A stretch of 64,000 nucleotides of DNA. Source: Patescibacteria group bacterium. GTDB taxonomy: Bacteria; Patescibacteriota; Dojkabacteria; JAKAPS01. The position numbers and the translations under genes are program-made. Below are positions 15,873 through 22,813 of this stretch, piece by piece. The stretch spans positions 11,289 to 75,288 of the forward strand of contig JANWIC010000008.1 of assembly GCA_025450075.1 (NCBI GenBank), written 5' to 3'. The stretch's first letter is position 1, and the number at the start of each line of letters is the position of its first letter. The notes under the pieces were generated by a model. It saw nothing but the letters and a program-made list of their open reading frames with translations. It had not been told where the DNA came from and ran no database searches.

Positions 15873-18116
15873 ATGGATTTAATCAGCACCATAATTATTA
15901 TATTGTTATTATTGTGTATTGTTGTAATTGTTACCTTAGTTGCAAAAAGGCTATTATTTGTTGAAAGAGTAAGGACAATTCTTTCCAAGAAAACCCAAAA
16001 GGTATTTTTAATCAAGATACATCCTTCTAATGAGAAAAAGGAGAATGTATTTGAAGCTTTGCTAAAGACACTTCATGATGTATTACCACATCATACATAT
16101 ATTAGCTTAGAACTTGTCTGCTCAAACCAGTTCATGCATTTTTATGTAACTGCTCCAATTGAGTATGCTTCCTTACTTACTTCACAACTATATTCGCAAT
16201 TTCCTGATGTCGAAATCGAAGAAACTAATGATTACGCGTCTCTACTAAATCCTTATCTTATTGAAATCGCAAATAAAGGGAAAACACCTTTCAAAACATA
16301 TAAAGATGGATTGGAAGATATATTAAAAGGTATTTCTGCAATTTTATCAACAACATCACAAAATGAAGAAATTTTTCTTCAACTTATACTTTCACCCAAT
16401 GGAAGTAAATTTTGGGAAAAGGGGATTAATCATGTATGGGAGAGCATTACTGACCACTCTGAACAAAACAAAATTAATCAAGAAACATTTAGGGGGAAAT
16501 TAATTATTGGATATGCGGCTCAAAATTCTTTAGTGGCAAAGAAGAAAGTGACTACTGTGATTAGACTTTTAAAACAGACAAAATATCCGCATAATGAATT
16601 AAAAGTAAAAAAATTCAATTTTTTTTCAGATATTGCAGTTTTATGGAAATCGAGGACATTTGAATATGGAGATATATGGACAGAAGCAGAAATTGCTTCG
16701 ATTTACCATTTTCCTTATAAAGGGAGTATTACTTCAAATGTTATTCATACCGACTCAAAAAAAGCTCCTGCTCCAGATATACTACCTCTTCAAGGAGATG
16801 ATATATCATTTTTTGGAGAAACAAATTACCATAATGAATTTAAGAAATTTGGAATTAAAAGAATAGATCGAAGACGTCACATGTATGTTGTTGGGAAAAC
16901 TGGATCTGGAAAAAGCAGACTTTTACAATTATTGTTAATTGCTGATATCCAGAATAATCAAGGATGCTGTCTTATCGACCCTCATGGTGACCTTGCACAA
17001 CAAGTACTAACTTATGTTCCAAAAGAAAGAATAAAAGATGTCGTATACATTGACCCTTCAGATAAGGACTTCCCTATTGGGTTCAATCCTCTCGAAAGTA
17101 CACAGGATTTTGAAACAAAACAACATCTTTCAACTTTTTTCATTGCAATATTCAAAAAGCTTTTTGGATACAATTGGAATCCTCGAATGGAACACCTTGT
17201 AAGGTATATTACTCTAGCTCTTCTTGAAACTTCAGATTCGAACATTCTTGGAATATCAAGAATGTTAACAGACACCGCTTTTAGACAAAGAGTAATTAAG
17301 CAGATCCAAGATCCGGTAATCAAGAATTTTTGGACAAACGAATTTCCAGGTTGGATCGAAAAGTATGCAAATGAAGCAGTGATACCTATTATGAATAAAG
17401 TTGGGCAATTCATTGCAAACCCAATGATTCGTAATATGGTTGGACAAAATAAAAACACCTTAGATTTCGAGAGATTTATGGATGAAGGGAAAATTGTTAT
17501 TATTAATTTATCAAAAGGGAAACTTGGAGAAGAAAATACAGCTTTCTTAGGTTCTATGTTCATCACCAAAATACAACAAGCAGCATTAAGCAGGTCCAGA
17601 ATACCTGAAGAAGCACGTAAAGATTTCTATTTTTATGTAGATGAATTCCAGAACTTTGCTACAGATGCATTTTCATCAATTCTTTCTGAGGCACGTAAAT
17701 ATCACCTTAACCTAACCATTGCTCATCAATATATTGCACAGTTACCTGACGATATCAAAGCAACCGCATTTGGAAATGTTGGGTCATTAGTAACTTTTAG
17801 TGTCGGTGGAGATGATGCAAGCTATCTTGGAAAAGAATTTAGTCCTATCTTTACTCCTGATGATTTAATTTCACTCAATACTCGTGAGATGTACATAAAA
17901 TTATCAGTAAATGGAAAACTTACTCCTCCATTTTCTGCAAGAACTATTGAAATACCTTCTACTTCTACAAATTATACAATTGAAATTTTGGAGCATTCTA
18001 GGATTACTTATGGAAAGAATAGAATTGCTGTAGAAAATGAAATTCAGAGGTGGACAAGTAGTGTTGAATTTCAAAGTGATAATGCCTCTGAGACTTTTCC
18101 CGAACCGATTATCTAA
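15873..18116 (+). CDS. Membrane-anchored VirD4/TraD-like (FtsK-HerA superfamily, TraG/DUF87-type) ATPase
   Basis: N-terminal TM helix 'IIIILLLLCIVVIVTLV'. Walker A 'YVVGKTGSGKSRLLQLLL' followed by 'CLIDPHGDLA' (coupling-protein signature). Walker B 'YFYVDEFQNF'. Confidence 0.65.
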   Translation: MDLISTIIIILLLLCIVVIVTLVAKRLLFVERVRTILSKKTQKVFLIKIHPSNEKKENVFEALLKTLHDVLPHHTYISLELVCSNQFMHFYVTAPIEYASLLTSQLYSQFPDVEIEETNDYASLLNPYLIEIANKGKTPFKTYKDGLEDILKGISAILSTTSQNEEIFLQLILSPNGSKFWEKGINHVWESITDHSEQNKINQETFRGKLIIGYAAQNSLVAKKKVTTVIRLLKQTKYPHNELKVKKFNFFSDIAVLWKSRTFEYGDIWTEAEIASIYHFPYKGSITSNVIHTDSKKAPAPDILPLQGDDISFFGETNYHNEFKKFGIKRIDRRRHMYVVGKTGSGKSRLLQLLLIADIQNNQGCCLIDPHGDLAQQVLTYVPKERIKDVVYIDPSDKDFPIGFNPLESTQDFETKQHLSTFFIAIFKKLFGYNWNPRMEHLVRYITLALLETSDSNILGISRMLTDTAFRQRVIKQIQDPVIKNFWTNEFPGWIEKYANEAVIPIMNKVGQFIANPMIRNMVGQNKNTLDFERFMDEGKIVIINLSKGKLGEENTAFLGSMFITKIQQAALSRSRIPEEARKDFYFYVDEFQNFATDAFSSILSEARKYHLNLTIAHQYIAQLPDDIKATAFGNVGSLVTFSVGGDDASYLGKEFSPIFTPDDLISLNTREMYIKLSVNGKLTPPFSARTIEIPSTSTNYTIEILEHSRITYGKNRIAVENEIQRWTSSVEFQSDNASETFPEPII

Positions 18117-19036
18117 AATACGAGAGAATCCCAATTCATATTTGATTGGTATAGGCTTTCTTTAATTACTCTACAAGCAGAGTTATATAATTGTTCGTTT
18201 AATTGCCTGTTCAAGATACAAAACTGCTTATGCGATAAATCTACACATCCTAAACAATTTTTGACATCAATACAATGGAATATATAAGAGCTATCTTGAC
18301 AGTCTTGTGCATATACAGCATGATCACAATTAAACAATCTTACACTATCAACAACTTCCAAAGAGAGTTCATTATGTGAAGAATATGTCACATCTAGTGT
18401 GTTTTTATTGTAAAAGCCATCATAAATATAGGCAGAGTTTTCATTTCTTGCTGCATCAAAGCAAAGGTAGCTATTTAAGTTATAATAGATGTAATCGCCA
18501 TAAGAAGTATTTTCATTATGTCCTTCATTTGTTTGTGTTGCTGGGTAATTCATTTTTATTTCCTCAAGAATTTTCAACACATTTGTTGAAGAAGTTTTCT
18601 TTAATTGTCCAAGCAATTCCTTATATTCTTGTTCAGAGAATTGCCTATTGAAAACGCAAAATTGTTTATTGGTAAGGTTTGCACATCCGAATATATCATT
18701 ACATCCAATACATCGGTAAGAATAATAAGCATCTCGAACACTTGTACACTTATCTAAAAAGTTTCCATTATAGCATTTGTATGCATCATTACATTCGTAA
18801 CATAGTTCTGATTCTACGCAGTAATCGCAATCATTACAATTCACACACATATATGAGTCATATGTATCAGAACAATCAGTACAACTATCACAATCATAAC
18901 AATTGAACAATTTTTTTGAATTTGAAATTTTATCTCCATAATCGCATTCAACTGAACTTTTAATGCTTACAGGAGATTTTGGTTGCAAAAGAATTAATCT
19001 TTGTAATTCTTTAAAAAATGTATCGCTTCCTATCAT
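18113..19036 (-). CDS. Cysteine-rich tandem CxxC-repeat protein (function unknown)
   Basis: 307 aa with repeated 'NCxDCxxCxDC'-type units: 'NCYDCDSCTDCSDTYDSYMCVNCNDCDYCVESELCYECNDAYKCYNGNF'. There is an internal duplication ('KQFCVFNRQFSEQEYKEL' and 'KQFCILNRQLNEQLYNSA'). Overlaps the upstream zinc-ribbon gene by 4 bp. Confidence 0.5.
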   Translation of the reverse strand: MIGSDTFFKELQRLILLQPKSPVSIKSSVECDYGDKISNSKKLFNCYDCDSCTDCSDTYDSYMCVNCNDCDYCVESELCYECNDAYKCYNGNFLDKCTSVRDAYYSYRCIGCNDIFGCANLTNKQFCVFNRQFSEQEYKELLGQLKKTSSTNVLKILEEIKMNYPATQTNEGHNENTSYGDYIYYNLNSYLCFDAARNENSAYIYDGFYNKNTLDVTYSSHNELSLEVVDSVRLFNCDHAVYAQDCQDSSYIFHCIDVKNCLGCVDLSHKQFCILNRQLNEQLYNSACRVIKESLYQSNMNWDSLVF

Positions 19037-19347
19037 TGAATATCAGGTAATGGATCATTAATAATTGGATCATTCGTAGCAAAATAATCTTCGTAATCTT
19101 TTTTGCACAAGATCTTATTTTGCACATTTTGAGGATTATATGATATAACAACTTCTTTGCCGCATACAGCACAACTTGCCTTATATAATTTTCTTTCACT
19201 TCCTCTTAACTTTAACCTTCTTTTCTGACGACAAGAAGGACATTGGGTTGGAAGAGGTAATTTTTTTTCTTCTAGAATCTTTTGCTCGTTGTCTATAATA
19301 AGGAATTGATTTGAACAATTAGTGCATGTTTGAGTTATTGCTGCCAT
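19033..19347 (-). CDS. Small zinc-ribbon protein
   Basis: 104 aa with paired 'CTNCS...CPSC' and 'CAVCGK' motifs. It is the first gene of a two-gene operon with the Cys-rich protein. Confidence 0.5.
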   Translation of the reverse strand: MAAITQTCTNCSNQFLIIDNEQKILEEKKLPLPTQCPSCRQKRRLKLRGSERKLYKASCAVCGKEVVISYNPQNVQNKILCKKDYEDYFATNDPIINDPLPDIQ

Positions 19348-19626
19348 TTTCTTAATTTATATTGATAATATACACTATCAATAAATTTAACACAATTCCT
19401 CGACAATATTATCCCCCATACTGTATAATATAGACACTATGGAAAACGTACGAAGACTACATGTAAATAGATCAACGACAACCACGACAACGCTTTAGGC
19501 CTGTCGGGGTAGTCAGACGTGTACGTTCTCTTCCATACATATTCTCCCGACAGGGAGTTTTTGCTTTCCCAAGACTCGTGTAACGACACCATCGTAAGAA
19601 GAGATAAATTACTTTATCTTTCTAAT

Positions 19627-20964
19627 ATGAAATCCAAATTTGTTGTTATAAATAAAAAAGGTGAAATCTTTGATGCAGATAAATATATTTCAAAATCAAA
19701 AGATTTTTCTATCCTCATTGAACGGGAAGCACTTGGAAAAGGTGTGAAACCAAGTGTTGACCAAGAAAAGCCTGAATATATAAAACTGGCTAAAAGATTT
19801 GGGTTCTCCTGGGAGAAAAATGCTGATATCGGATTTATGAGTATGGATTACAAGGCAAACTTTATGCACAGACTTGTAAAAGATTTTGCCAGACAAGTAG
19901 TACATCAAATAGGAATGCCAATTCTTGAGATAAGCGGATCAAGGATGTTTGATATGTCGCATCCTGTTGTTCAGGCATATTCAGATCTTTTTGGTGAACG
20001 GCTTTTTCATCCATCAGTTGGAGAGAAGGATATGGTCATGGGGTATGATTGTTCATATCCGCAATTTAATCTATCGCAAGGATATCAGATGAGCTACAAG
20101 CAGCTTCCGTTTGCACACTTCTCCATAAATGAATGTTTCAGACTTGAGCAAAGCGGTGAATGCATGCTTCTATATAGAGGAAGACAATTCAATATGCCGG
20201 ACCTTCATCCATATTTTAAAGATGTAATGGAAGCATTTGATTGGTATCCAAAAATTGAAAAGCAAGTAAGAGAAGTATTTCAGAACAGCAAAAGAGGATT
20301 TGTTCTTTCTGCTGCAGTTTCTTCCTTACAATATTGGGAAAAATACAAGGAAGAAATATGTTCCATTGCTATCCGAAACAAGAAGGAACTTCTTTTAGAA
20401 ATTCCATTACAGGATATGAATAAGTACTGGATCGTAAATGTAGATTACAAAATTATTGATGCATTCGGTCAATCAAGAGAAATAGCATGTATTCAAATCG
20501 ATGTAGAAAATGCAAAACGACTTGATATTTCATATATTGATGAAAAAGGAGAAAAGCAGTATCCAATTATCATCCATAGCGCTGTAAGCGGTGGAATTGA
20601 ACGATATTTGTATATGTTATTTGATAACTTCAGAAATCACTTTCCACTTTGGCTGCATCCCGTGCAACTGCGCCTTATACCTGTCAGTGAAAAGTATAAT
20701 GAAGTATGTGAAGATTTAGCAAACAAATATGCTAAACAAGTTCGCATTGATGTGGATGACAGATCAGAAAGTGTAGCAAAAAGGATTAAACTTGCTAAAG
20801 AAGATTATATTCCGCATGTATTGGTTATTGGAGAAAAGGAATTATCTCAATCAGACGGTATAAAAGAATTAGAAGATATGATTGTAATGATTAAAAAAGA
20901 GATTAAGAAAAAACCATATTCTCCAATTGACTGGCCAATAATGGTAAGTAAACAGGTGAAATAA
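19627..20964 (+). CDS. Threonyl-tRNA-synthetase-like class IIa aaRS paralog: catalytic and anticodon-binding domains only, no N-terminal TGS/editing domains
   Basis: Motif-2-like 'FSINECFRLEQSGECMLLYRGRQFNMPDLHPYF' (compare ThrRS '[30 protein letters not shown]', recalled from memory). Motif-3-like 'HSAVSGGIERYLYMLFDNF'. Class IIa anticodon-binding C-terminus 'LWLHPVQLRLIPVSEKY'. The position aligned to the zinc-ligand His of ThrRS is Phe. I call the start at ATG 19627; the track's longer ORF uses the GTG at 19519. Confidence 0.6.
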   Translation: MKSKFVVINKKGEIFDADKYISKSKDFSILIEREALGKGVKPSVDQEKPEYIKLAKRFGFSWEKNADIGFMSMDYKANFMHRLVKDFARQVVHQIGMPILEISGSRMFDMSHPVVQAYSDLFGERLFHPSVGEKDMVMGYDCSYPQFNLSQGYQMSYKQLPFAHFSINECFRLEQSGECMLLYRGRQFNMPDLHPYFKDVMEAFDWYPKIEKQVREVFQNSKRGFVLSAAVSSLQYWEKYKEEICSIAIRNKKELLLEIPLQDMNKYWIVNVDYKIIDAFGQSREIACIQIDVENAKRLDISYIDEKGEKQYPIIIHSAVSGGIERYLYMLFDNFRNHFPLWLHPVQLRLIPVSEKYNEVCEDLANKYAKQVRIDVDDRSESVAKRIKLAKEDYIPHVLVIGEKELSQSDGIKELEDMIVMIKKEIKKKPYSPIDWPIMVSKQVK

Positions 20965-21025: not shown

Positions 21026-22813
21026 TCAACCGTTATTATTTCTAAGCGCTTCAAATGCTTTTGCAACAATTGAACCATGTGTTTCACCTCGAGGAGAGTT
21101 AACAAAACCATACGTTGTATTTGATATTTCAACTAGCCGTTGTAAACGATCATCTTCGGCTTTTGCTTCATCCGGGCTATACCGAGAAAGTACAAGTTCA
21201 ATTGCATTCTGCCAATCTTGTAATGTATATGAATGACCAATTAAATCCTTTTCTTCAAGTTGATATCCCCTACCTTTATCTCTTACCACTCTTTCAATGA
21301 GAAGCGCAGTTGCATGATCAACAATTTCTCGTATACTGCGAGGCGTAAAATTATTAGTTAATGTCGTCACCAAATTGATTATCATTTCTCTTGCTTCCTC
21401 TGAACTTTCAGCGGTAATACCTGATAATAGAGGGTCAAATAATTCGACATGTAATTGAGGAGTGCAAGTAGGTACATGTTTTTCAAGAATAGATCGTCGA
21501 GCATCTTCATCAGGAAGACCGCAAAATATCATAAGACCAAGACGTTCACTTTGGCATAATTGAGGTGAAAGTTTCTCTGGGTAATTAGTTGTTGTTATGA
21601 GTCTAATTCCTGAAGAAAATAATCCGGCTAAAAGATTTAGTAATGCATTACTTGCAGCACTTCCCTGCCCGTCATCTTTGTCAAAAGGCCTTTCCATATC
21701 TTCTAAAATAACTATAATTGGCCTTTGAACCTGCTTAGCGATATCCATAAGTCTTCGTATAAGAGTACGATCTGAAGGGTCTTTTAGCAGATCTGCTGCA
21801 AAATCTGTTGCAGAGATTGGAAGCATTATTACACCATGCTCTTCTTTCATAAGCTCCATAATGAGTCTTGTTTTTCCTGTTCCCATTTGTCCTGCTAACA
21901 TTACTGATCGAGGTCTTCCGGAAACTGAACTTGTAAGAGACGGATTAGCAAGGGGATAAAGAAGTATTCGCCGGATAAGTTGCAACTGATCACTATCGGA
22001 AGGAAGTGTACTTTGGTCTTGCAAACCTAAAACATTCATTTTATGATGAATCTCATACATTAGTCTTGCTTGATCCGCAGGAATTCCTTTACCAGCAAGT
22101 ATGCTAGCAATGTTTATTATTGCCAGCATGATTTCAATCTGGTACATACCATCGTTAACTAGACCTCTCCCACCTACATAAATCCCACCTTCTCTCATTT
22201 CGATAAGATAATTTGGAGAAGGATATAAATTTGAGTTGTTATCAGTAACACGAGAATCAGTAAACCAGTGCATATCTTGTCTTGCTCGGAATCCAGCCGC
22301 AACATCATTTCTTGGTAGTTCTCGCATAATAAATAACCCTTTATCCCTTCTTGTTAACCTTCCTAGATTTTCTTGCCCGCGGAAATATCCTAAAATATGA
22401 TCATCAACGGGAAGATCTTTACCTCTTGCGGTAAGAATTGGATAAGTAAATGCTGTACGTTTTCTCGGCTTCCGTCCAGGGTTCGGACCATATATCATAT
22501 CGGAAACAGTAAACAATTGTTCAAGTTGTTCACCTGTTAAATTTTGAATATTAAATTTAATCTGAATTCTAGGAAAATAATCATCTGGAGACCAGGTACT
22601 TTGAACCTCTACAATATTTATTTCTGGCTGAATTCCACCAATATTTTCTACTAACATCTTTACTGCATTTTGGAAAGCAGTGAGTCCTATTCGATCTGTA
22701 GGGTCAAAGCTTAAGGGATACAATAGAGGATCCCGAGGAAGCCTTGCACTGCTATCCATCTCACTAAGTTCTCGAGCTTGTTCTTCCCCACTGACTGGTT
22801 CTCTTATGCTCAT
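21026..22813 (-). CDS. AAA+ ATPase with a ~300-aa N-terminal domain of unknown function
   Basis: Walker A 'LAGQMGTGKTRLI' and Walker B 'PIIVILEDMERPFD'. The N-terminal half has no recognisable motif. GC content appears higher than in the flanking genes. Confidence 0.6.
   Translation of the reverse strand: MSIREPVSGEEQARELSEMDSSARLPRDPLLYPLSFDPTDRIGLTAFQNAVKMLVENIGGIQPEINIVEVQSTWSPDDYFPRIQIKFNIQNLTGEQLEQLFTVSDMIYGPNPGRKPRKRTAFTYPILTARGKDLPVDDHILGYFRGQENLGRLTRRDKGLFIMRELPRNDVAAGFRARQDMHWFTDSRVTDNNSNLYPSPNYLIEMREGGIYVGGRGLVNDGMYQIEIMLAIINIASILAGKGIPADQARLMYEIHHKMNVLGLQDQSTLPSDSDQLQLIRRILLYPLANPSLTSSVSGRPRSVMLAGQMGTGKTRLIMELMKEEHGVIMLPISATDFAADLLKDPSDRTLIRRLMDIAKQVQRPIIVILEDMERPFDKDDGQGSAASNALLNLLAGLFSSGIRLITTTNYPEKLSPQLCQSERLGLMIFCGLPDEDARRSILEKHVPTCTPQLHVELFDPLLSGITAESSEEAREMIINLVTTLTNNFTPRSIREIVDHATALLIERVVRDKGRGYQLEEKDLIGHSYTLQDWQNAIELVLSRYSPDEAKAEDDRLQRLVEISNTTYGFVNSPRGETHGSIVAKAFEALRNNNG

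What the first reader, a model, noticed from the sequence alone, without database searches (positions are those of the whole stretch)
18113..19347. Two-gene operon: zinc-ribbon protein plus a 307-aa protein built of tandem 'NCxDCxxCxDC' repeats
The downstream protein carries more than 35 cysteines arranged in a ~10-12-residue periodic C-x2-C array ('NCYDCDSCTDCSDTYDSYMCVNCNDCDYCVESELCYECNDAYKCYNG'). It has an internal duplication of a 'KQFC(V/I)(F/L)NRQ...EQ.Y' unit and no signal peptide. The genes overlap by ATGA, so they are translationally coupled. Such dense CxxC arrays suggest a metal-binding or redox-active scaffold, or a radical-SAM/RiPP-associated partner. I cannot match it to a named family.
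Basis: seen in the sequence. Interest (0 to 1): 0.55.

Follow-up and report, generated by a model that had tools for sequence, protein, structure and literature searches.

The report
New rod-protein family of ultrasmall bacteria
The cysteine-rich gene is real and belongs to a large, unnamed protein family of ultrasmall (CPR/Patescibacteria) bacteria that most likely folds into a thin, acidic 12-residue-per-turn beta-helix rod rather than a metal-binding array. It always travels with a zinc-finger partner and, in this lineage, with a VirD4-like membrane ATPase whose role in these bacteria is an open question.

Summary
The two-gene operon exists, on the minus strand: a 104-aa zinc-finger gene (19347..19033) and a 307-aa Cys-rich gene (19036..18113) joined by an ATGA overlap. 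The protein has 25 cysteines, not more than 35.

The metal/redox and radical-SAM/RiPP ideas are not supported. Across orthologs most Cys columns swap freely with Ser/Ala/Thr/Gly. No maturase gene co-occurs.

The protein consists of two homologous ~123-aa modules (HHalign E 3e-48). A small residue sits at every third position. Coevolution over 882 modules puts 57 of the top 120 couplings at sequence separation exactly 12. That indicates a narrow 12-residue-per-rung beta-solenoid, which resembles the beetle antifreeze protein in pattern only.

The family has no Pfam or NCBIfam model. It has about 3,900 clusters at 50% identity, and its best genome matches are almost all Patescibacteria.

It is always paired or fused with zf_Tbcl treble-clef fingers. 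Many relatives are ~560-aa finger-core-linker-finger fusions in tandem arrays of 2-7 paralogs.

In the window's lineage the pair lies convergent to a membrane-anchored VirD4-like ATPase, with overlapping stop codons (20 of 21 loci). Linkage is specific to certain ATPase clades (Fisher p 5e-10).

Best reading: an accessory or cargo module of an orphan type IV coupling-protein-like ATPase. The function itself is inferred, not shown.

The parts
19033..19347 (-). Gene for the 104-aa zinc-finger protein (zf_Tbcl family). It is the first gene of the operon.
   Evidence: ORF. Pfam PF13451 E 2.3e-8, 34.3 bits (cut-off 24), residues 5-44. PF23477 scores 21.3 bits, below its cut-off of 27, for residues 52-82. 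Orthologs are 54-66% identical and sit in the same position in 20+ loci.
19231..19326 (-). Finger 1: C8-x2-C11 ... C36-x2-C39, followed by the basic stretch CRQKRRLKLRG.
   Evidence: All four Cys are conserved in 26 aligned partners. The central segment 34-82 has net charge +10.
19096..19173 (-). Finger 2: C59-x2-C62 ... C81-x2-D84. The fourth ligand is Asp in this lineage and Cys in others.
   Evidence: Alignment. Sub-threshold PF23477 and TIGR04272 matches.
19042..19077 (-). Conserved acidic, proline-rich tail (T)NDPIINDPLPD of the finger protein.
   Evidence: Consensus ENDPIIxDPLPE in nearly all split-form partners. In fused proteins this segment is the linker to the core (P0074). A role as a docking peptide is inference.
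19033..19036 (-). ATGA stop/start overlap between the two genes.
   Evidence: In relatives the junction is an overlap or a gap of at most 15 nt.
18113..19036 (-). Gene for the 307-aa acidic Cys/Ser-laddered repeat protein, from an unnamed Patescibacteria family.
   Evidence: 101 homologous clusters of 306-309 aa at 45-55% identity. 3,941 representative clusters with E<=1e-3. No Pfam, NCBIfam or PADLOC family. Weak match to PHROG 15341, E 3.5e-10.
18605..18973 (-). Module 1 (residues 22-144): about 8-9 rungs of 12 residues plus a cap and a helix.
   Evidence: HHalign of module 1 against module 2: E 2.9e-48, 123 ungapped columns. Period 3 of small residues. i,i+12 coevolution. Rung layout.
18167..18535 (-). 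Module 2 (residues 168-290): the same architecture with few Cys. It shows an NxN[ST] ladder every 12 residues.
   Evidence: (autocorrelation peaks at 12 and 24).
18623..18691 (-). Cap motif 1: FGCxxLxxKxFC(V/I)FNRQxSxxEY (residues 116-138).
   Evidence: Nearly invariant columns F116 G117 C118 L121 K124 C127 F129 N130 E137 Y138. pLDDT is 75-91 here.
18185..18253 (-). Cap motif 2: LGCxxLxxKxFCILNRQxxxxxY (residues 262-284).
   Evidence: Nearly invariant G263 C264 C273 L275 N276 Q278 Y284. pLDDT is 86-95.
18113..18116 (.). Convergent overlap of the two stop codons (CTAA: TAA of the ATPase on +, TAG of the repeat protein on -). There is no intergenic space or terminator.
   Evidence: The same geometry occurs in 12 related loci and in L086/L087. 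No terminator-like site lies between the genes.
15873..18116 (+). Gene for the 747-aa membrane-anchored VirD4/TraD-like (type IV coupling protein-like) ATPase, the conserved neighbour.
   Evidence: Pfam DUF87 31.4 bits (cut-off 23.2) and TrwB_AAD_bind 23.7 bits (cut-off 20.5); TraG-D_C 20.8 bits is just below its cut-off of 22. NCBIfam VirD4-like CD1115 E 1.8e-13, below its cut-off. PHROG 5156 E 2.8e-72. Hydrophobic residues 4-27 form one predicted TM helix (sequence). Walker A is G341-K347 and Walker B is D590-E591, both invariant.
19354..19381 (-). Promoter-like site TTGATA-16-TAAATT ending 7 nt before the ATG, which would give a nearly leaderless transcript. It is overlapped by the palindrome TATTGATA-N8-TATCAATA (19360-19383).
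   Evidence: The number of promoter-like sites in the region is not above the shuffled expectation, so this is weak evidence.

Best explanation
The 307-aa protein is a cytoplasmic, acidic structural repeat protein. It is not a metal-cluster array.

Structure. It consists of two homologous ~123-residue modules. Each is most likely a very narrow beta-solenoid with 12 residues per rung and a rung consensus of [C/S]-[E/K]-[N/D]-C-x-[Y/L]-C-x-D-[S/C]-x-N. The four small residues per rung (Cys, Ser, Ala, Thr or Gly at every third position) fill the tight core. Asn/Asp ladders line the corners. A conserved 'FGC..L..K.FCIFNRQ..x..EY' cap plus a helix closes each module.

Partner. It forms a complex with the upstream treble-clef zinc-finger protein. 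The pair is a split version of single-chain finger-core(-linker-finger) proteins found in other Patescibacteria.

ATPase. The pair works together with the convergently overlapping, membrane-anchored VirD4-like ATPase. It most probably acts as a cytoplasmic accessory (adaptor) of this orphan coupling-protein-like motor, or as cargo handed to it.

Shown: family conservation, the module duplication, the periodicity, the i,i+12 coevolution, the finger fusions, and the clade-specific gene linkage.
Inferred: the fold, the physical complex, and any role in ATPase-driven transport.
For: Real and conserved gene:
- 101 clusters in one search and 3,941 in the other, with constant length.

Cys are not ligands:
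- Most Cys columns interchange with S/A/T/G.
- Only one module position is more than 90% Cys across 882 modules, and there are no obligate Cys pairs.
- Cys number per ortholog ranges from 15 to 35.

Fold:
- The FFT of small-residue occupancy peaks at exactly 3.0.
- The two modules are homologous.
- In mean-field DCA, 57 of the top 120 pairs lie at separation 12, against 1.9 expected.
- In a gap-free subset, 25 of the 52 pairs that beat the best column-shuffled score lie at separation 12.
- The only PDB sequence with any profile match is the 12-residue-rung Tenebrio antifreeze helix 1EZG, at a non-significant E of 1.4.
- The weak Foldseek hits are all beta-helix proteins.

Complex with the finger:
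- N-terminal fusions P0074 and P0085, and C-terminal fusion P0091.
- ~560-aa finger-core-linker-finger forms.
- The finger gene is directly upstream in every close ortholog locus.
- Charges are complementary: the core averages net -14 and the finger centre is +10.

ATPase link:
- 20 of 21 close-ortholog loci have the convergent ATPase, 12 of them with the same overlapping stops.
- 33 of 84 loci have the ATPase within 6 kb, in three different gene orders. The chance expectation is about 3% per locus (using 5,713 homologs in 2,918 genomes from PMC12102498).
- Among loci fetched with the ATPase alone, two ATPase clades have the family adjacent in 16 of 22 cases, against 4 of 73 for the other clades (Fisher p 4.8e-10).

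Precedent:
- The Legionella coupling protein DotL works with the small cytoplasmic subunits DotM, DotN, IcmS/W and LvgA in substrate recognition (PMC12960579).
Against: - AlphaFold2 gave only a moderate model (pLDDT 72, pTM 0.65). The first module was at pLDDT ~50 and was modelled partly as long hairpins. No significant structural neighbour was found.
- i,i+12 couplings in repeat proteins can be inflated by repeat-register alignment effects.
- The seven Cys that are more than 93% conserved in the orthogroup (79, 109, 118, 127, 255, 264, 273) could still bind a metal in the caps.
- Gene linkage is not interaction. Most members of the wider family (arrays, and a MAG with 17 or more copies) have no ATPase within the 6 kb seen.
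- About three quarters of the related ATPases have no family gene nearby.
- No T4SS (VirB4) genes are in the window, so there is no obvious channel for export.
- The cultivated Saccharibacterium S. epibionticum seems to lack the module: PF13451 is absent from its annotation tables. No genetic data therefore bear on it.
Confidence: 0.45

Rival explanations
1. Metal-binding or redox scaffold. The CxxC arrays would coordinate Zn, Fe-S or other metals, or shuttle electrons or sulfur.
For: The protein has 25 Cys and 9 CxxC motifs. Seven Cys are more than 93% conserved in the orthogroup, arranged as C-x8-C-x8-C in each cap. The partner is a genuine zinc finger.
Against: Most Cys columns are freely replaced by Ser/Ala/Thr/Gly. 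The second module of the window protein has only 8 Cys yet keeps the same 12-residue pattern using Asn/Ser/Thr. Cys presence at pairs of positions is only weakly correlated (phi at most 0.42). No ferredoxin, metallothionein or SPASM-type family matches. The fourth cap ligand is not conserved (C112 75%, C261 45%).
Confidence: 0.1
2. The repeat proteins are diversified, exported effectors (cargo) delivered to host bacteria. The VirD4-like ATPase would recruit them through the finger domains. This is a sub-case of the main explanation, with cargo rather than adaptor.
For: Tandem arrays of 2-7 paralogs are only 40-47% identical to each other. One ~1-Mb-class genome has 17 or more copies. There is no Sec signal. 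The ATPase sits at the edge of many arrays. Patescibacteria T4SS are thought to export proteins rather than DNA (PMC10633639, PMC12102498).
Against: The window lineage has a single copy at a fixed position, which is more typical of a housekeeping accessory. Zinc fingers and a stable solenoid are poor substrates for a machine that needs unfolded cargo (established knowledge). The ATPases are not near virB4 (PMC12102498).
Confidence: 0.15
3. The link to the ATPase is only conserved synteny. The finger/solenoid pair would have an independent cytoplasmic role, for example a bactofilin-like scaffold, a DNA mimic or nucleic-acid-handling factor, or an immunity-type binder.
For: Most long-form arrays show no ATPase in the 6 kb seen. 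The core is strongly acidic and rod-like, as DNA mimics such as pentapeptide-repeat proteins are (established knowledge). The finger has a basic CRxxRR stretch. TrmB-like regulators, not ATPases, are interspersed in arrays.
Against: Linkage recurs in three gene orders across distant lineages and is specific to ATPase clades. The overlapping convergent stops are kept at about 45% protein identity.
Confidence: 0.25
4. RiPP or radical-SAM associated partner, or a Cys-rich precursor.
For: Only the Cys richness.
Against: No radical-SAM, cyclodehydratase, protease or transporter family recurs among 84 loci. The protein is 307 aa, of fixed length and highly conserved, unlike a precursor.
Confidence: 0.02

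Closest known systems
Tenebrio molitor antifreeze protein (TmAFP, PDB 1EZG): 12-residue-rung, Cys-rich beta-helix
   Same: Both have a 12-residue period with a small residue at every third position (TCTxSxxCxxAx against CxNCxxCxDCxN). Both are very Cys-rich. 1EZG is the only PDB chain that the family profile touches.
   Different: The match is not significant (E 1.4, high bias), so this is analogy, not homology. TmAFP is a secreted 84-aa protein whose Cys are invariant and disulfide-bonded and which has a Thr-x-Thr ice-binding face (established knowledge). Here the protein is cytoplasmic, its Cys are replaceable, its surface is acidic with Asn/Asp/Tyr, and it has two capped modules.
Type IV coupling protein complexes with small accessory subunits (Legionella DotL-DotM-DotN-IcmS/W-LvgA)
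   Same: A VirD4-type ATPase is encoded or assembled with small cytoplasmic proteins that recognise substrates (PMC12960579). DotN is a Zn-binding protein (my own knowledge, not tested here).
   Different: No sequence relationship was found or tested. The Patescibacteria ATPase is not encoded near a T4SS (PMC12102498). The accessory candidates here are a treble-clef finger and a beta-solenoid.
zf_Tbcl (PF13451) and zf_Tbcl_2 (PF23477): probable treble-clef zinc fingers
   Same: The upstream protein is a member. The same domains flank the core in fused relatives.
   Different: These Pfam families have no described function, so membership does not explain the system.
Pentapeptide-repeat proteins (MfpA/Qnr) and other cytoplasmic beta-solenoids (bactofilins, LbH proteins)
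   Same: They are cytoplasmic, acidic, rod-like solenoids that act by shape and surface rather than by catalysis (established knowledge). LbH proteins are the only weak Foldseek neighbours.
   Different: Those repeats have 5 or 6 residues with rungs of 20 or 18. No Pfam match was found, and the Foldseek E-values of 4-10 are meaningless.
Orphan VirD4-like T4CP homologs of Patescibacteria (PMC12102498)
   Same: The neighbouring 747-aa ATPase is one of these. That paper reports 5,713 homologs in 2,918 genomes, only 148 of them near virB4, and suspects exaptation.
   Different: The paper does not describe any partner genes. The finger/solenoid linkage reported here is specific to two subclades.

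Membership tests
zf_Tbcl (Pfam PF13451), for the 104-aa protein | Score above the Pfam gathering threshold; two CxxC knuckles. | tested here: met
   34.3 bits against a cut-off of 24, residues 5-44. C8, C11, C36 and C39 are conserved in 26 partners.
zf_Tbcl_2 (Pfam PF23477) / TIGR04272 CxxC-x17-CxxC, for the second finger | Score above the curated threshold; four Cys ligands. | tested here: not met
   21.3 bits against 27 and 16.8 bits against 36. The fourth ligand is Asp84 in this lineage. Some orthologs do pass (P0264, P0265).
Type IV coupling protein (VirD4/TraD/TrwB), for the 747-aa neighbour | N-terminal membrane anchor, FtsK/HerA-type P-loop domain, and family-level score. | tested here: inconclusive
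   Pfam TrwB_AAD_bind (23.7 bits, cut-off 20.5) and DUF87 (31.4, cut-off 23.2) pass; TraG-D_C (20.8, cut-off 22) does not quite. NCBIfam VirD4-like CD1115 scores 50 bits against a cut-off of 250. One hydrophobic N-terminal helix and invariant Walker A/B motifs are present. No PDB sequence match.
Type IV coupling protein (VirD4/TraD/TrwB), for the 747-aa neighbour | Encoded with, or acting on, a T4SS channel (VirB4 etc.) or a relaxase. | tested here: not met
   No such genes appear among the window ORFs that were scanned. This is generally true of the Patescibacteria homologs (PMC12102498). Action at a distance is not testable here.
TmAFP-type 12-residue beta-helix | 12-residue rung with small residues every third position. 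| tested here: met
   Period 3. i,i+12 coevolution in 57 of the top 120 pairs, robust in the gap-free subset and against the shuffle control. This is indirect: no confident 3-D model exists.
TmAFP-type 12-residue beta-helix | Invariant, disulfide-bonded Cys pairs; a secreted protein; a TxT ice-binding face; sequence homology. | tested here: not met
   Cys are replaceable and unpaired. There is no signal peptide. The outward positions are E/K, N/D and Y. The profile match has E 1.4.
Cys-ligand metal-cluster arrays (ferredoxin-, metallothionein- or SPASM-like) | Conserved Cys ligand sets. | tested here: not met
   no family match. A three-Cys site in each cap is not excluded.
RiPP / radical-SAM associated protein | A conserved neighbouring maturase. 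| tested here: not met
   Only the ATPase and TrmB-like families recur among 84 loci.
Pentapeptide / hexapeptide repeat solenoids | Match to the Pfam repeat model; a 5- or 6-residue period. | tested here: not met
   No Pfam hit in any of 101 members. The periods are 3 and 12.
Known anti-phage defence systems (PADLOC) | Match of the components to a PADLOC model. | tested here: not met
   The core has no match. The finger matches only LmuB at E 0.004. The ATPase shows only generic HerA/mad8 P-loop similarity, E 1e-10.

The most novel reading that the evidence does not exclude
Two subclades of the 'orphan' VirD4-like ATPases of Patescibacteria have been exapted into a dedicated system. Its clients are a phylum-specific, heavily expanded family of thin acidic 12-residue-rung beta-helix rods fitted with treble-clef fingers. 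The rods would be exported to host cells as a diversified effector repertoire. Alternatively they would act as DNA-shaped plugs or substrates that the hexameric motor grips in place of DNA. Either way this would be a new class of coupling-protein cargo/adaptor and a new natural beta-helix fold family.
Probability: 0.15. Interest if true: 0.85.

Novelty: new variant of a known kind. Interest (0 to 1): 0.6.

Why it matters
Patescibacteria make up a large share of bacterial diversity, and most of their phylum-specific proteins have no known role.

- This family is large, with about 3,900 clusters at 50% identity. It can take up more than 1% of a 1-Mb genome, and it has no database model.
- A 2025 survey found about two VirD4-like coupling-protein genes per Patescibacteria genome, almost never next to a secretion system, and could only suggest that they were exapted. 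The clade-specific linkage found here gives those ATPases their first candidate partners or cargo, which makes that question testable by pull-downs, localisation and co-culture proteomics.
- Structurally, a cytoplasmic 12-residue-rung helix with a replaceable Cys/Ser core would be a new natural example of the tightest known beta-solenoid. It would also be a useful test case, because AlphaFold2 models it poorly.

Tried and rejected
- Sequence-family searches of the core gave nothing: Pfam, NCBIfam and PADLOC, the PDB by sequence and by profile, and Pfam on all 101 members. The one exception was an unannotated PHROG.
- AlphaFold2 was run twice, with 23 and with 101 sequences. It gave pLDDT 68 and 72, and the first module was unreliable.
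- Foldseek against the PDB and BFVD gave no significant hits.
- Phage origin was rejected. There was no tblastn hit in 50,697 phage records and only one marginal hit in IMG/VR. GC content equals that of the surroundings.
- Bacillus phage G carries an ATPase homolog next to a VirB-like gene but has no finger or solenoid gene.
- Disulfide or metal pairing was tested through Cys co-occurrence and rejected.
- The homolog search with the finger protein returned only close orthologs, so it gave no information on other domain architectures.
- Literature searches for PF13451, for treble-clef/CPR and for Cys-rich Patescibacteria proteins found no description of this family.
- I looked for Tn-seq evidence in Southlakia epibionticum. 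Its two T4CP-like genes (SEML1_0142 and SEML1_0293) have no such neighbours, and PF13451 is absent from its annotation tables, so those data do not apply.
- The promoter and terminator scan was no better than chance.

Full report
**1. What is in the window**

Both ORFs are on the minus strand. A 104-aa ORF runs 19347..19033 and a 307-aa ORF runs 19036..18113. The stop of the first and the start of the second share the sequence ATGA.

That protein has 25 cysteines and 9 CxxC motifs, not more than 35. All 17 Cys of the first half fall in one register modulo 3, and all 8 of the second half fall in one register. The chance of this is about 2e-8 and 5e-4 respectively.

The local GC content (30-34%) is the same as the surroundings, so this is not an island. 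A weak promoter-like site and an 8-N8-8 palindrome lie just upstream of the first ATG. The scan is not better than chance.

**2. Is the gene real, and is it known?**

It is real. The word-indexed search found 101 clusters, nearly all 306-309 aa and 45-55% identical. A profile search over 1.84 billion representatives found 3,941 clusters with E<=1e-3 and 1,452 with E<=1e-30.

Every name given by a source is 'hypothetical protein'.

The core matches nothing curated:
- no Pfam, NCBIfam or PADLOC model;
- no PDB chain at a significant E-value;
- in a Pfam scan of all 101 members, only the zf_Tbcl finger families reached meaningful E-values, and only in fused members; no family matched more than 8 members, and those matches had E ≥ 0.007.

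There is one weak match, to an unannotated PHROG (phrog_15341, E 3.5e-10).

A scan of one genome per GTDB species gave at least 571 confirmed loci. The best 79 are almost all labelled Patescibacteria: Daviesbacteria, Levyibacteriota, Blackburnbacteria, Saccharimonadales, Peregrinibacteria, Peribacteria, Gracilibacteria and Parcubacteria groups. A few MAGs are labelled Gammaproteobacteria, Lysobacterales or Bdellovibrionales. They have 34-43% GC and the same gene module, so they are probably mislabelled bins.

The family is essentially absent from phage records and IMG/VR.

**3. The cysteines are not ligands**

In 94 orthologs most Cys columns are 15-88% Cys and otherwise Ser, Ala, Thr or Gly. 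Small residues make up 80-100% of those columns. Only positions 79, 109, 118, 127, 255, 264 and 273 exceed 93% Cys.

Over 882 module instances from the whole family, only one position is more than 90% Cys: the Cys of the FGC motif. Co-occurrence of Cys at pairs of positions is weak (phi at most 0.42). There are therefore no obligate disulfide or metal pairs.

Orthologs carry between 15 and 35 Cys. The second module of the window protein keeps the same pattern with Asn/Ser/Thr in place of Cys.

**4. Architecture**

HHalign of the N-half profile against the C-half profile aligns residues 22-144 with 168-290, without a single gap (probability 100%, E 2.9e-48). The protein is therefore a tandem of two homologous modules. 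Each ends in the motif (F/L)GC-x2-L-x2-K-x-(F/Y)-C-I-(F/L)-N-(R/K)-Q-x5-Y followed by a helix.

Small-residue occupancy has a Fourier peak at exactly 3.0 residues in both modules. Profile autocorrelation peaks at 21 in module 1 and at 12 and 24 in module 2.

I extracted 882 non-identical module instances (effective number 811) from all proteins and loci fetched, and ran mean-field direct-coupling analysis on them.
- Of the top 120 pairs with |i-j|>=4, 57 have separation exactly 12, against 1.9 expected.
- In a subset of 518 modules without internal gaps, 42 of the top 120 have separation 12.
- In that subset, 25 of the 52 pairs that beat the best score of a column-shuffled control have separation 12. 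They are spread over module positions 6-108 and over all three registers.

This is the signature of stacked rungs of 12 residues, about 8-9 per module. Laid out in rows of 12, the consensus rung is [C/S]-[E/K]-[N/D]-C-x-[Y/L]-C-x-D-[S/C]-x-N. The four small positions presumably fill a very tight core, with Asn/Asp ladders at the corners.

AlphaFold2 did not resolve this. The 101-sequence run gave pLDDT 72 and pTM 0.65. The caps and helices are confident (75-95), but the first module is at about 50. Foldseek found nothing significant. Its weak PDB hits are all left-handed beta-helix proteins with E 4-10. BFVD gave one hit at E 0.27.

The only PDB sequence touched by the family profile is 1EZG, the 12-residue-rung Tenebrio antifreeze helix. 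With E 1.4 and high compositional bias, this is a pattern analogy only.

The fold assignment therefore rests on coevolution and periodicity. I rate it likely, not proven. Repeat-register alignment effects can inflate such signals.

**5. The zinc-finger partner**

The 104-aa protein passes Pfam zf_Tbcl (PF13451, 34.3 bits against a cut-off of 24). It has a second, sub-threshold finger (PF23477, 21.3 bits against 27) whose fourth ligand is Asp in this lineage. Its centre is basic (+10). Its tail, ENDPIIxDPLPE, is almost invariant among split-form partners.

The link to the core is a Rosetta-stone case:
- P0074 and P0085 carry the finger fused at the N-terminus.
- P0091 carries it at the C-terminus.
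- Much of the wider family consists of ~560-aa proteins with an N-terminal finger region (identified by sequence), the two-module core, an 'EWGEFF...YNE..AQE.FPL' linker, and a C-terminal finger that Pfam detects.

In every close ortholog locus the finger gene lies directly upstream, either overlapping or within 15 nt. The core is consistently acidic, with mean net charge -14 and pI 4.9. A physical complex is a strong inference, but it was not tested.

**6. The conserved neighbour**

The 747-aa ORF at 15873..18116 on the plus strand ends inside the stop codon of the repeat gene. The four bases 18113-18116 read CTAA, giving TAA on the plus strand and TAG on the minus strand. No terminator-like site lies between the two genes.

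The protein has one N-terminal hydrophobic helix. It has a P-loop domain that passes Pfam DUF87 and TrwB_AAD_bind and narrowly misses TraG-D_C, and it is distantly VirD4-like by NCBIfam. Its Walker motifs are invariant.

Linkage to the finger/core pair is strong:
- Of 21 loci with a close ortholog (42% identity or more), 20 show finger, then core, then convergent ATPase. Twelve of them have the identical overlapping-stop geometry.
- Over all 84 family loci, 33 have a strong homolog of this ATPase within 6 kb, in three gene orders: convergent, upstream co-directional, and downstream co-directional.
- With about two such ATPases per ~1-Mb genome (5,713 in 2,918 genomes, PMC12102498), chance would give about 3% per locus. 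The loci are not phylogenetically independent, so that p-value is only indicative.

As an unbiased reverse test I fetched 80 metagenome loci using the ATPase profile alone. Clustering the nucleotide-binding domains at about 55% identity gave this picture:
- In the window's clade and one sister clade, the family is adjacent (within 700 bp) in 16 of 22 loci.
- In the other clades it is adjacent in 4 of 73 (Fisher p 4.8e-10).

All-against-all clustering of the neighbouring ORFs found no other recurrent family except a TrmB-like regulator. That regulator is interspersed on the opposite strand in long-form arrays, in 13 loci. No VirB4 or other T4SS gene is among the scanned ORFs of the window.

**7. 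Expansion**

In Peregrinibacteria, Peribacteria and Gracilibacteria the fused form occurs in tandem arrays of 2-7 paralogs. The paralogs are only 40-47% identical to one another. One MAG (MFD09206.bin.2.20) has at least 17 short copies, about 60% identical within one five-copy array, with no finger gene found in the loci fetched. The window has a single copy.

**8. Mechanism**

Shown:
- a conserved, phylum-specific two-module repeat protein;
- replaceable Cys;
- 3- and 12-residue order with i,i+12 coevolution;
- obligatory association with treble-clef fingers;
- clade-specific linkage to a membrane-anchored VirD4-like ATPase.

Inferred:
- the protein is a thin acidic beta-helix rod;
- it binds its finger partner;
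- the pair serves the ATPase as a cytoplasmic accessory or as cargo.

The nearest functional precedent is the Legionella coupling complex. There the coupling protein DotL works with the small subunits DotM, DotN, IcmS/W and LvgA to recognise substrates (PMC12960579).

The Patescibacteria T4SS lacks a recognisable coupling protein and relaxase in its own cluster and is thought to export proteins (PMC10633639). The scattered VirD4 homologs are suspected of exaptation (PMC12102498).

I give the combined explanation a confidence of 0.45. By component: about 0.85 for 'structural repeat protein, not a metal array', about 0.7 for a finger-core complex, about 0.55 for a functional link to the ATPase, and about 0.3 for adaptor as opposed to cargo.

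**9. Rivals**

- A metal or redox scaffold is unlikely (0.1) but not excluded for a three-Cys site in each cap.
- The cargo/effector reading (0.15) is favoured by the diverged arrays and the missing Sec signal. It is disfavoured by the single fixed copy here and by the stable folds.
- Pure synteny with an independent role, such as a scaffold, DNA mimic or immunity-like binder (0.25), is favoured by the many arrays without a visible ATPase.
- A RiPP or radical-SAM role is effectively refuted (0.02).

**10. Novelty and limits**

No database model or paper that I could find describes the core family or its link to the ATPase. It is a new protein family whose likely fold class and likely system class are both known, so I call it a 'new variant of a known kind'.

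Limits:
- There is no confident 3-D model.
- Flanks were limited to 6 kb.
- There are no experimental data. The one Patescibacterium with Tn-seq data appears to lack the module.

Noticed in passing
window 18113-18116; L001, L004, L006, L007, L009, L011, L013-L016, L022, L026, L086, L087: The convergent ATPase and repeat-protein genes overlap by their stop codons (CTAA). This exact geometry is kept in at least 14 loci at about 45% protein identity. The two transcripts must therefore overlap at their 3' ends, which may allow antisense or transcriptional-interference coupling.
   Followed up: partly
L003/L029, L019, L025, L027, L034, L035, L042 (MAG MFD09206.bin.2.20, contigs CAWGXL010000011.1 and CAWGXL010000002.1): One genome carries at least 17 short-form copies in several tandem arrays, with no zinc-finger partner gene found in the loci fetched. 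One array is interrupted by a NikA-like/PIN toxin-antitoxin pair (L003 10813-11492) and preceded by a 522-aa MJ0043_C-domain protein.
   Followed up: partly
L040, L053, L055, L056, L059, L061, L068, L070, L071, L081, L084, L005/L030: TrmB-like HTH regulator genes (~270 aa) are interspersed on the opposite strand between long-form array members (three copies in L040). This suggests repeated regulator-plus-gene cassettes.
   Followed up: partly
L166 (Bacillus phage G, JN638751.1 85012-99189); SPO1-like Bacillus phages: The ATPase has clear homologs in jumbo phage G (gp156, profile E 8e-90), next to a VirB-like gene (gp155), and in SPO1-like phages. It also matches PHROG 5156 at E 2.8e-72. No finger or solenoid gene is nearby there.
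   Followed up: partly
L092-L096, L099, L100, L103-L112, L121, L122, L128 and others: Many related ATPase genes in metagenome contigs appear as two consecutive ORFs or as tandem ATPase pairs. This could reflect split genes, real tandem duplicates, or an alternative genetic code (UGA sense) in some lineages.
   Followed up: no
window 19360-19383: A perfect 8-bp inverted repeat, TATTGATA-N8-TATCAATA, overlaps the -35-like element directly upstream of the operon. It lies in the 170-bp divergent region shared with the aaRS-like gene and is a possible operator.
   Followed up: no
window 19519-20964 (+): A 481-aa class II aminoacyl-tRNA synthetase-like ORF has a tRNA-synt_2b core and an HGTP anticodon domain, a predicted GTG start, and no recognisable N-terminal editing domain. 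It is divergently transcribed from the operon.
   Followed up: no
window 21026-22813 (-): A 595-aa protein has a C-terminal AAA ATPase domain and a ~290-aa N-terminal region with no family match. Its GC content is slightly higher (37-39%) than its neighbours.
   Followed up: no
P0173 (731 aa): One long-form member carries an N-terminal GNAT acetyltransferase domain in front of finger-core-linker-finger. In S. epibionticum a GNAT-like gene also sits next to a T4CP-like gene (SEML1_0292/0293). This may be coincidence.
   Followed up: no
PMC10633639 supplementary tables: Southlakia epibionticum has two T4CP-like genes. SEML1_0293 is scored non-essential. SEML1_0142 (TraM-recognition-domain ATPase) and its small upstream neighbour SEML1_0141 are scored essential. 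This nuances the statement in PMC12102498 that the t4cp homolog is dispensable.
   Followed up: partly
L009, L015, L016, L020, L026, L075; P0016: MAGs labelled Gammaproteobacteria, Lysobacterales, Bdellovibrionales or Actinobacteria carry the same finger-core-ATPase module at 34-43% GC. They are probably mis-assigned Patescibacteria bins.
   Followed up: partly
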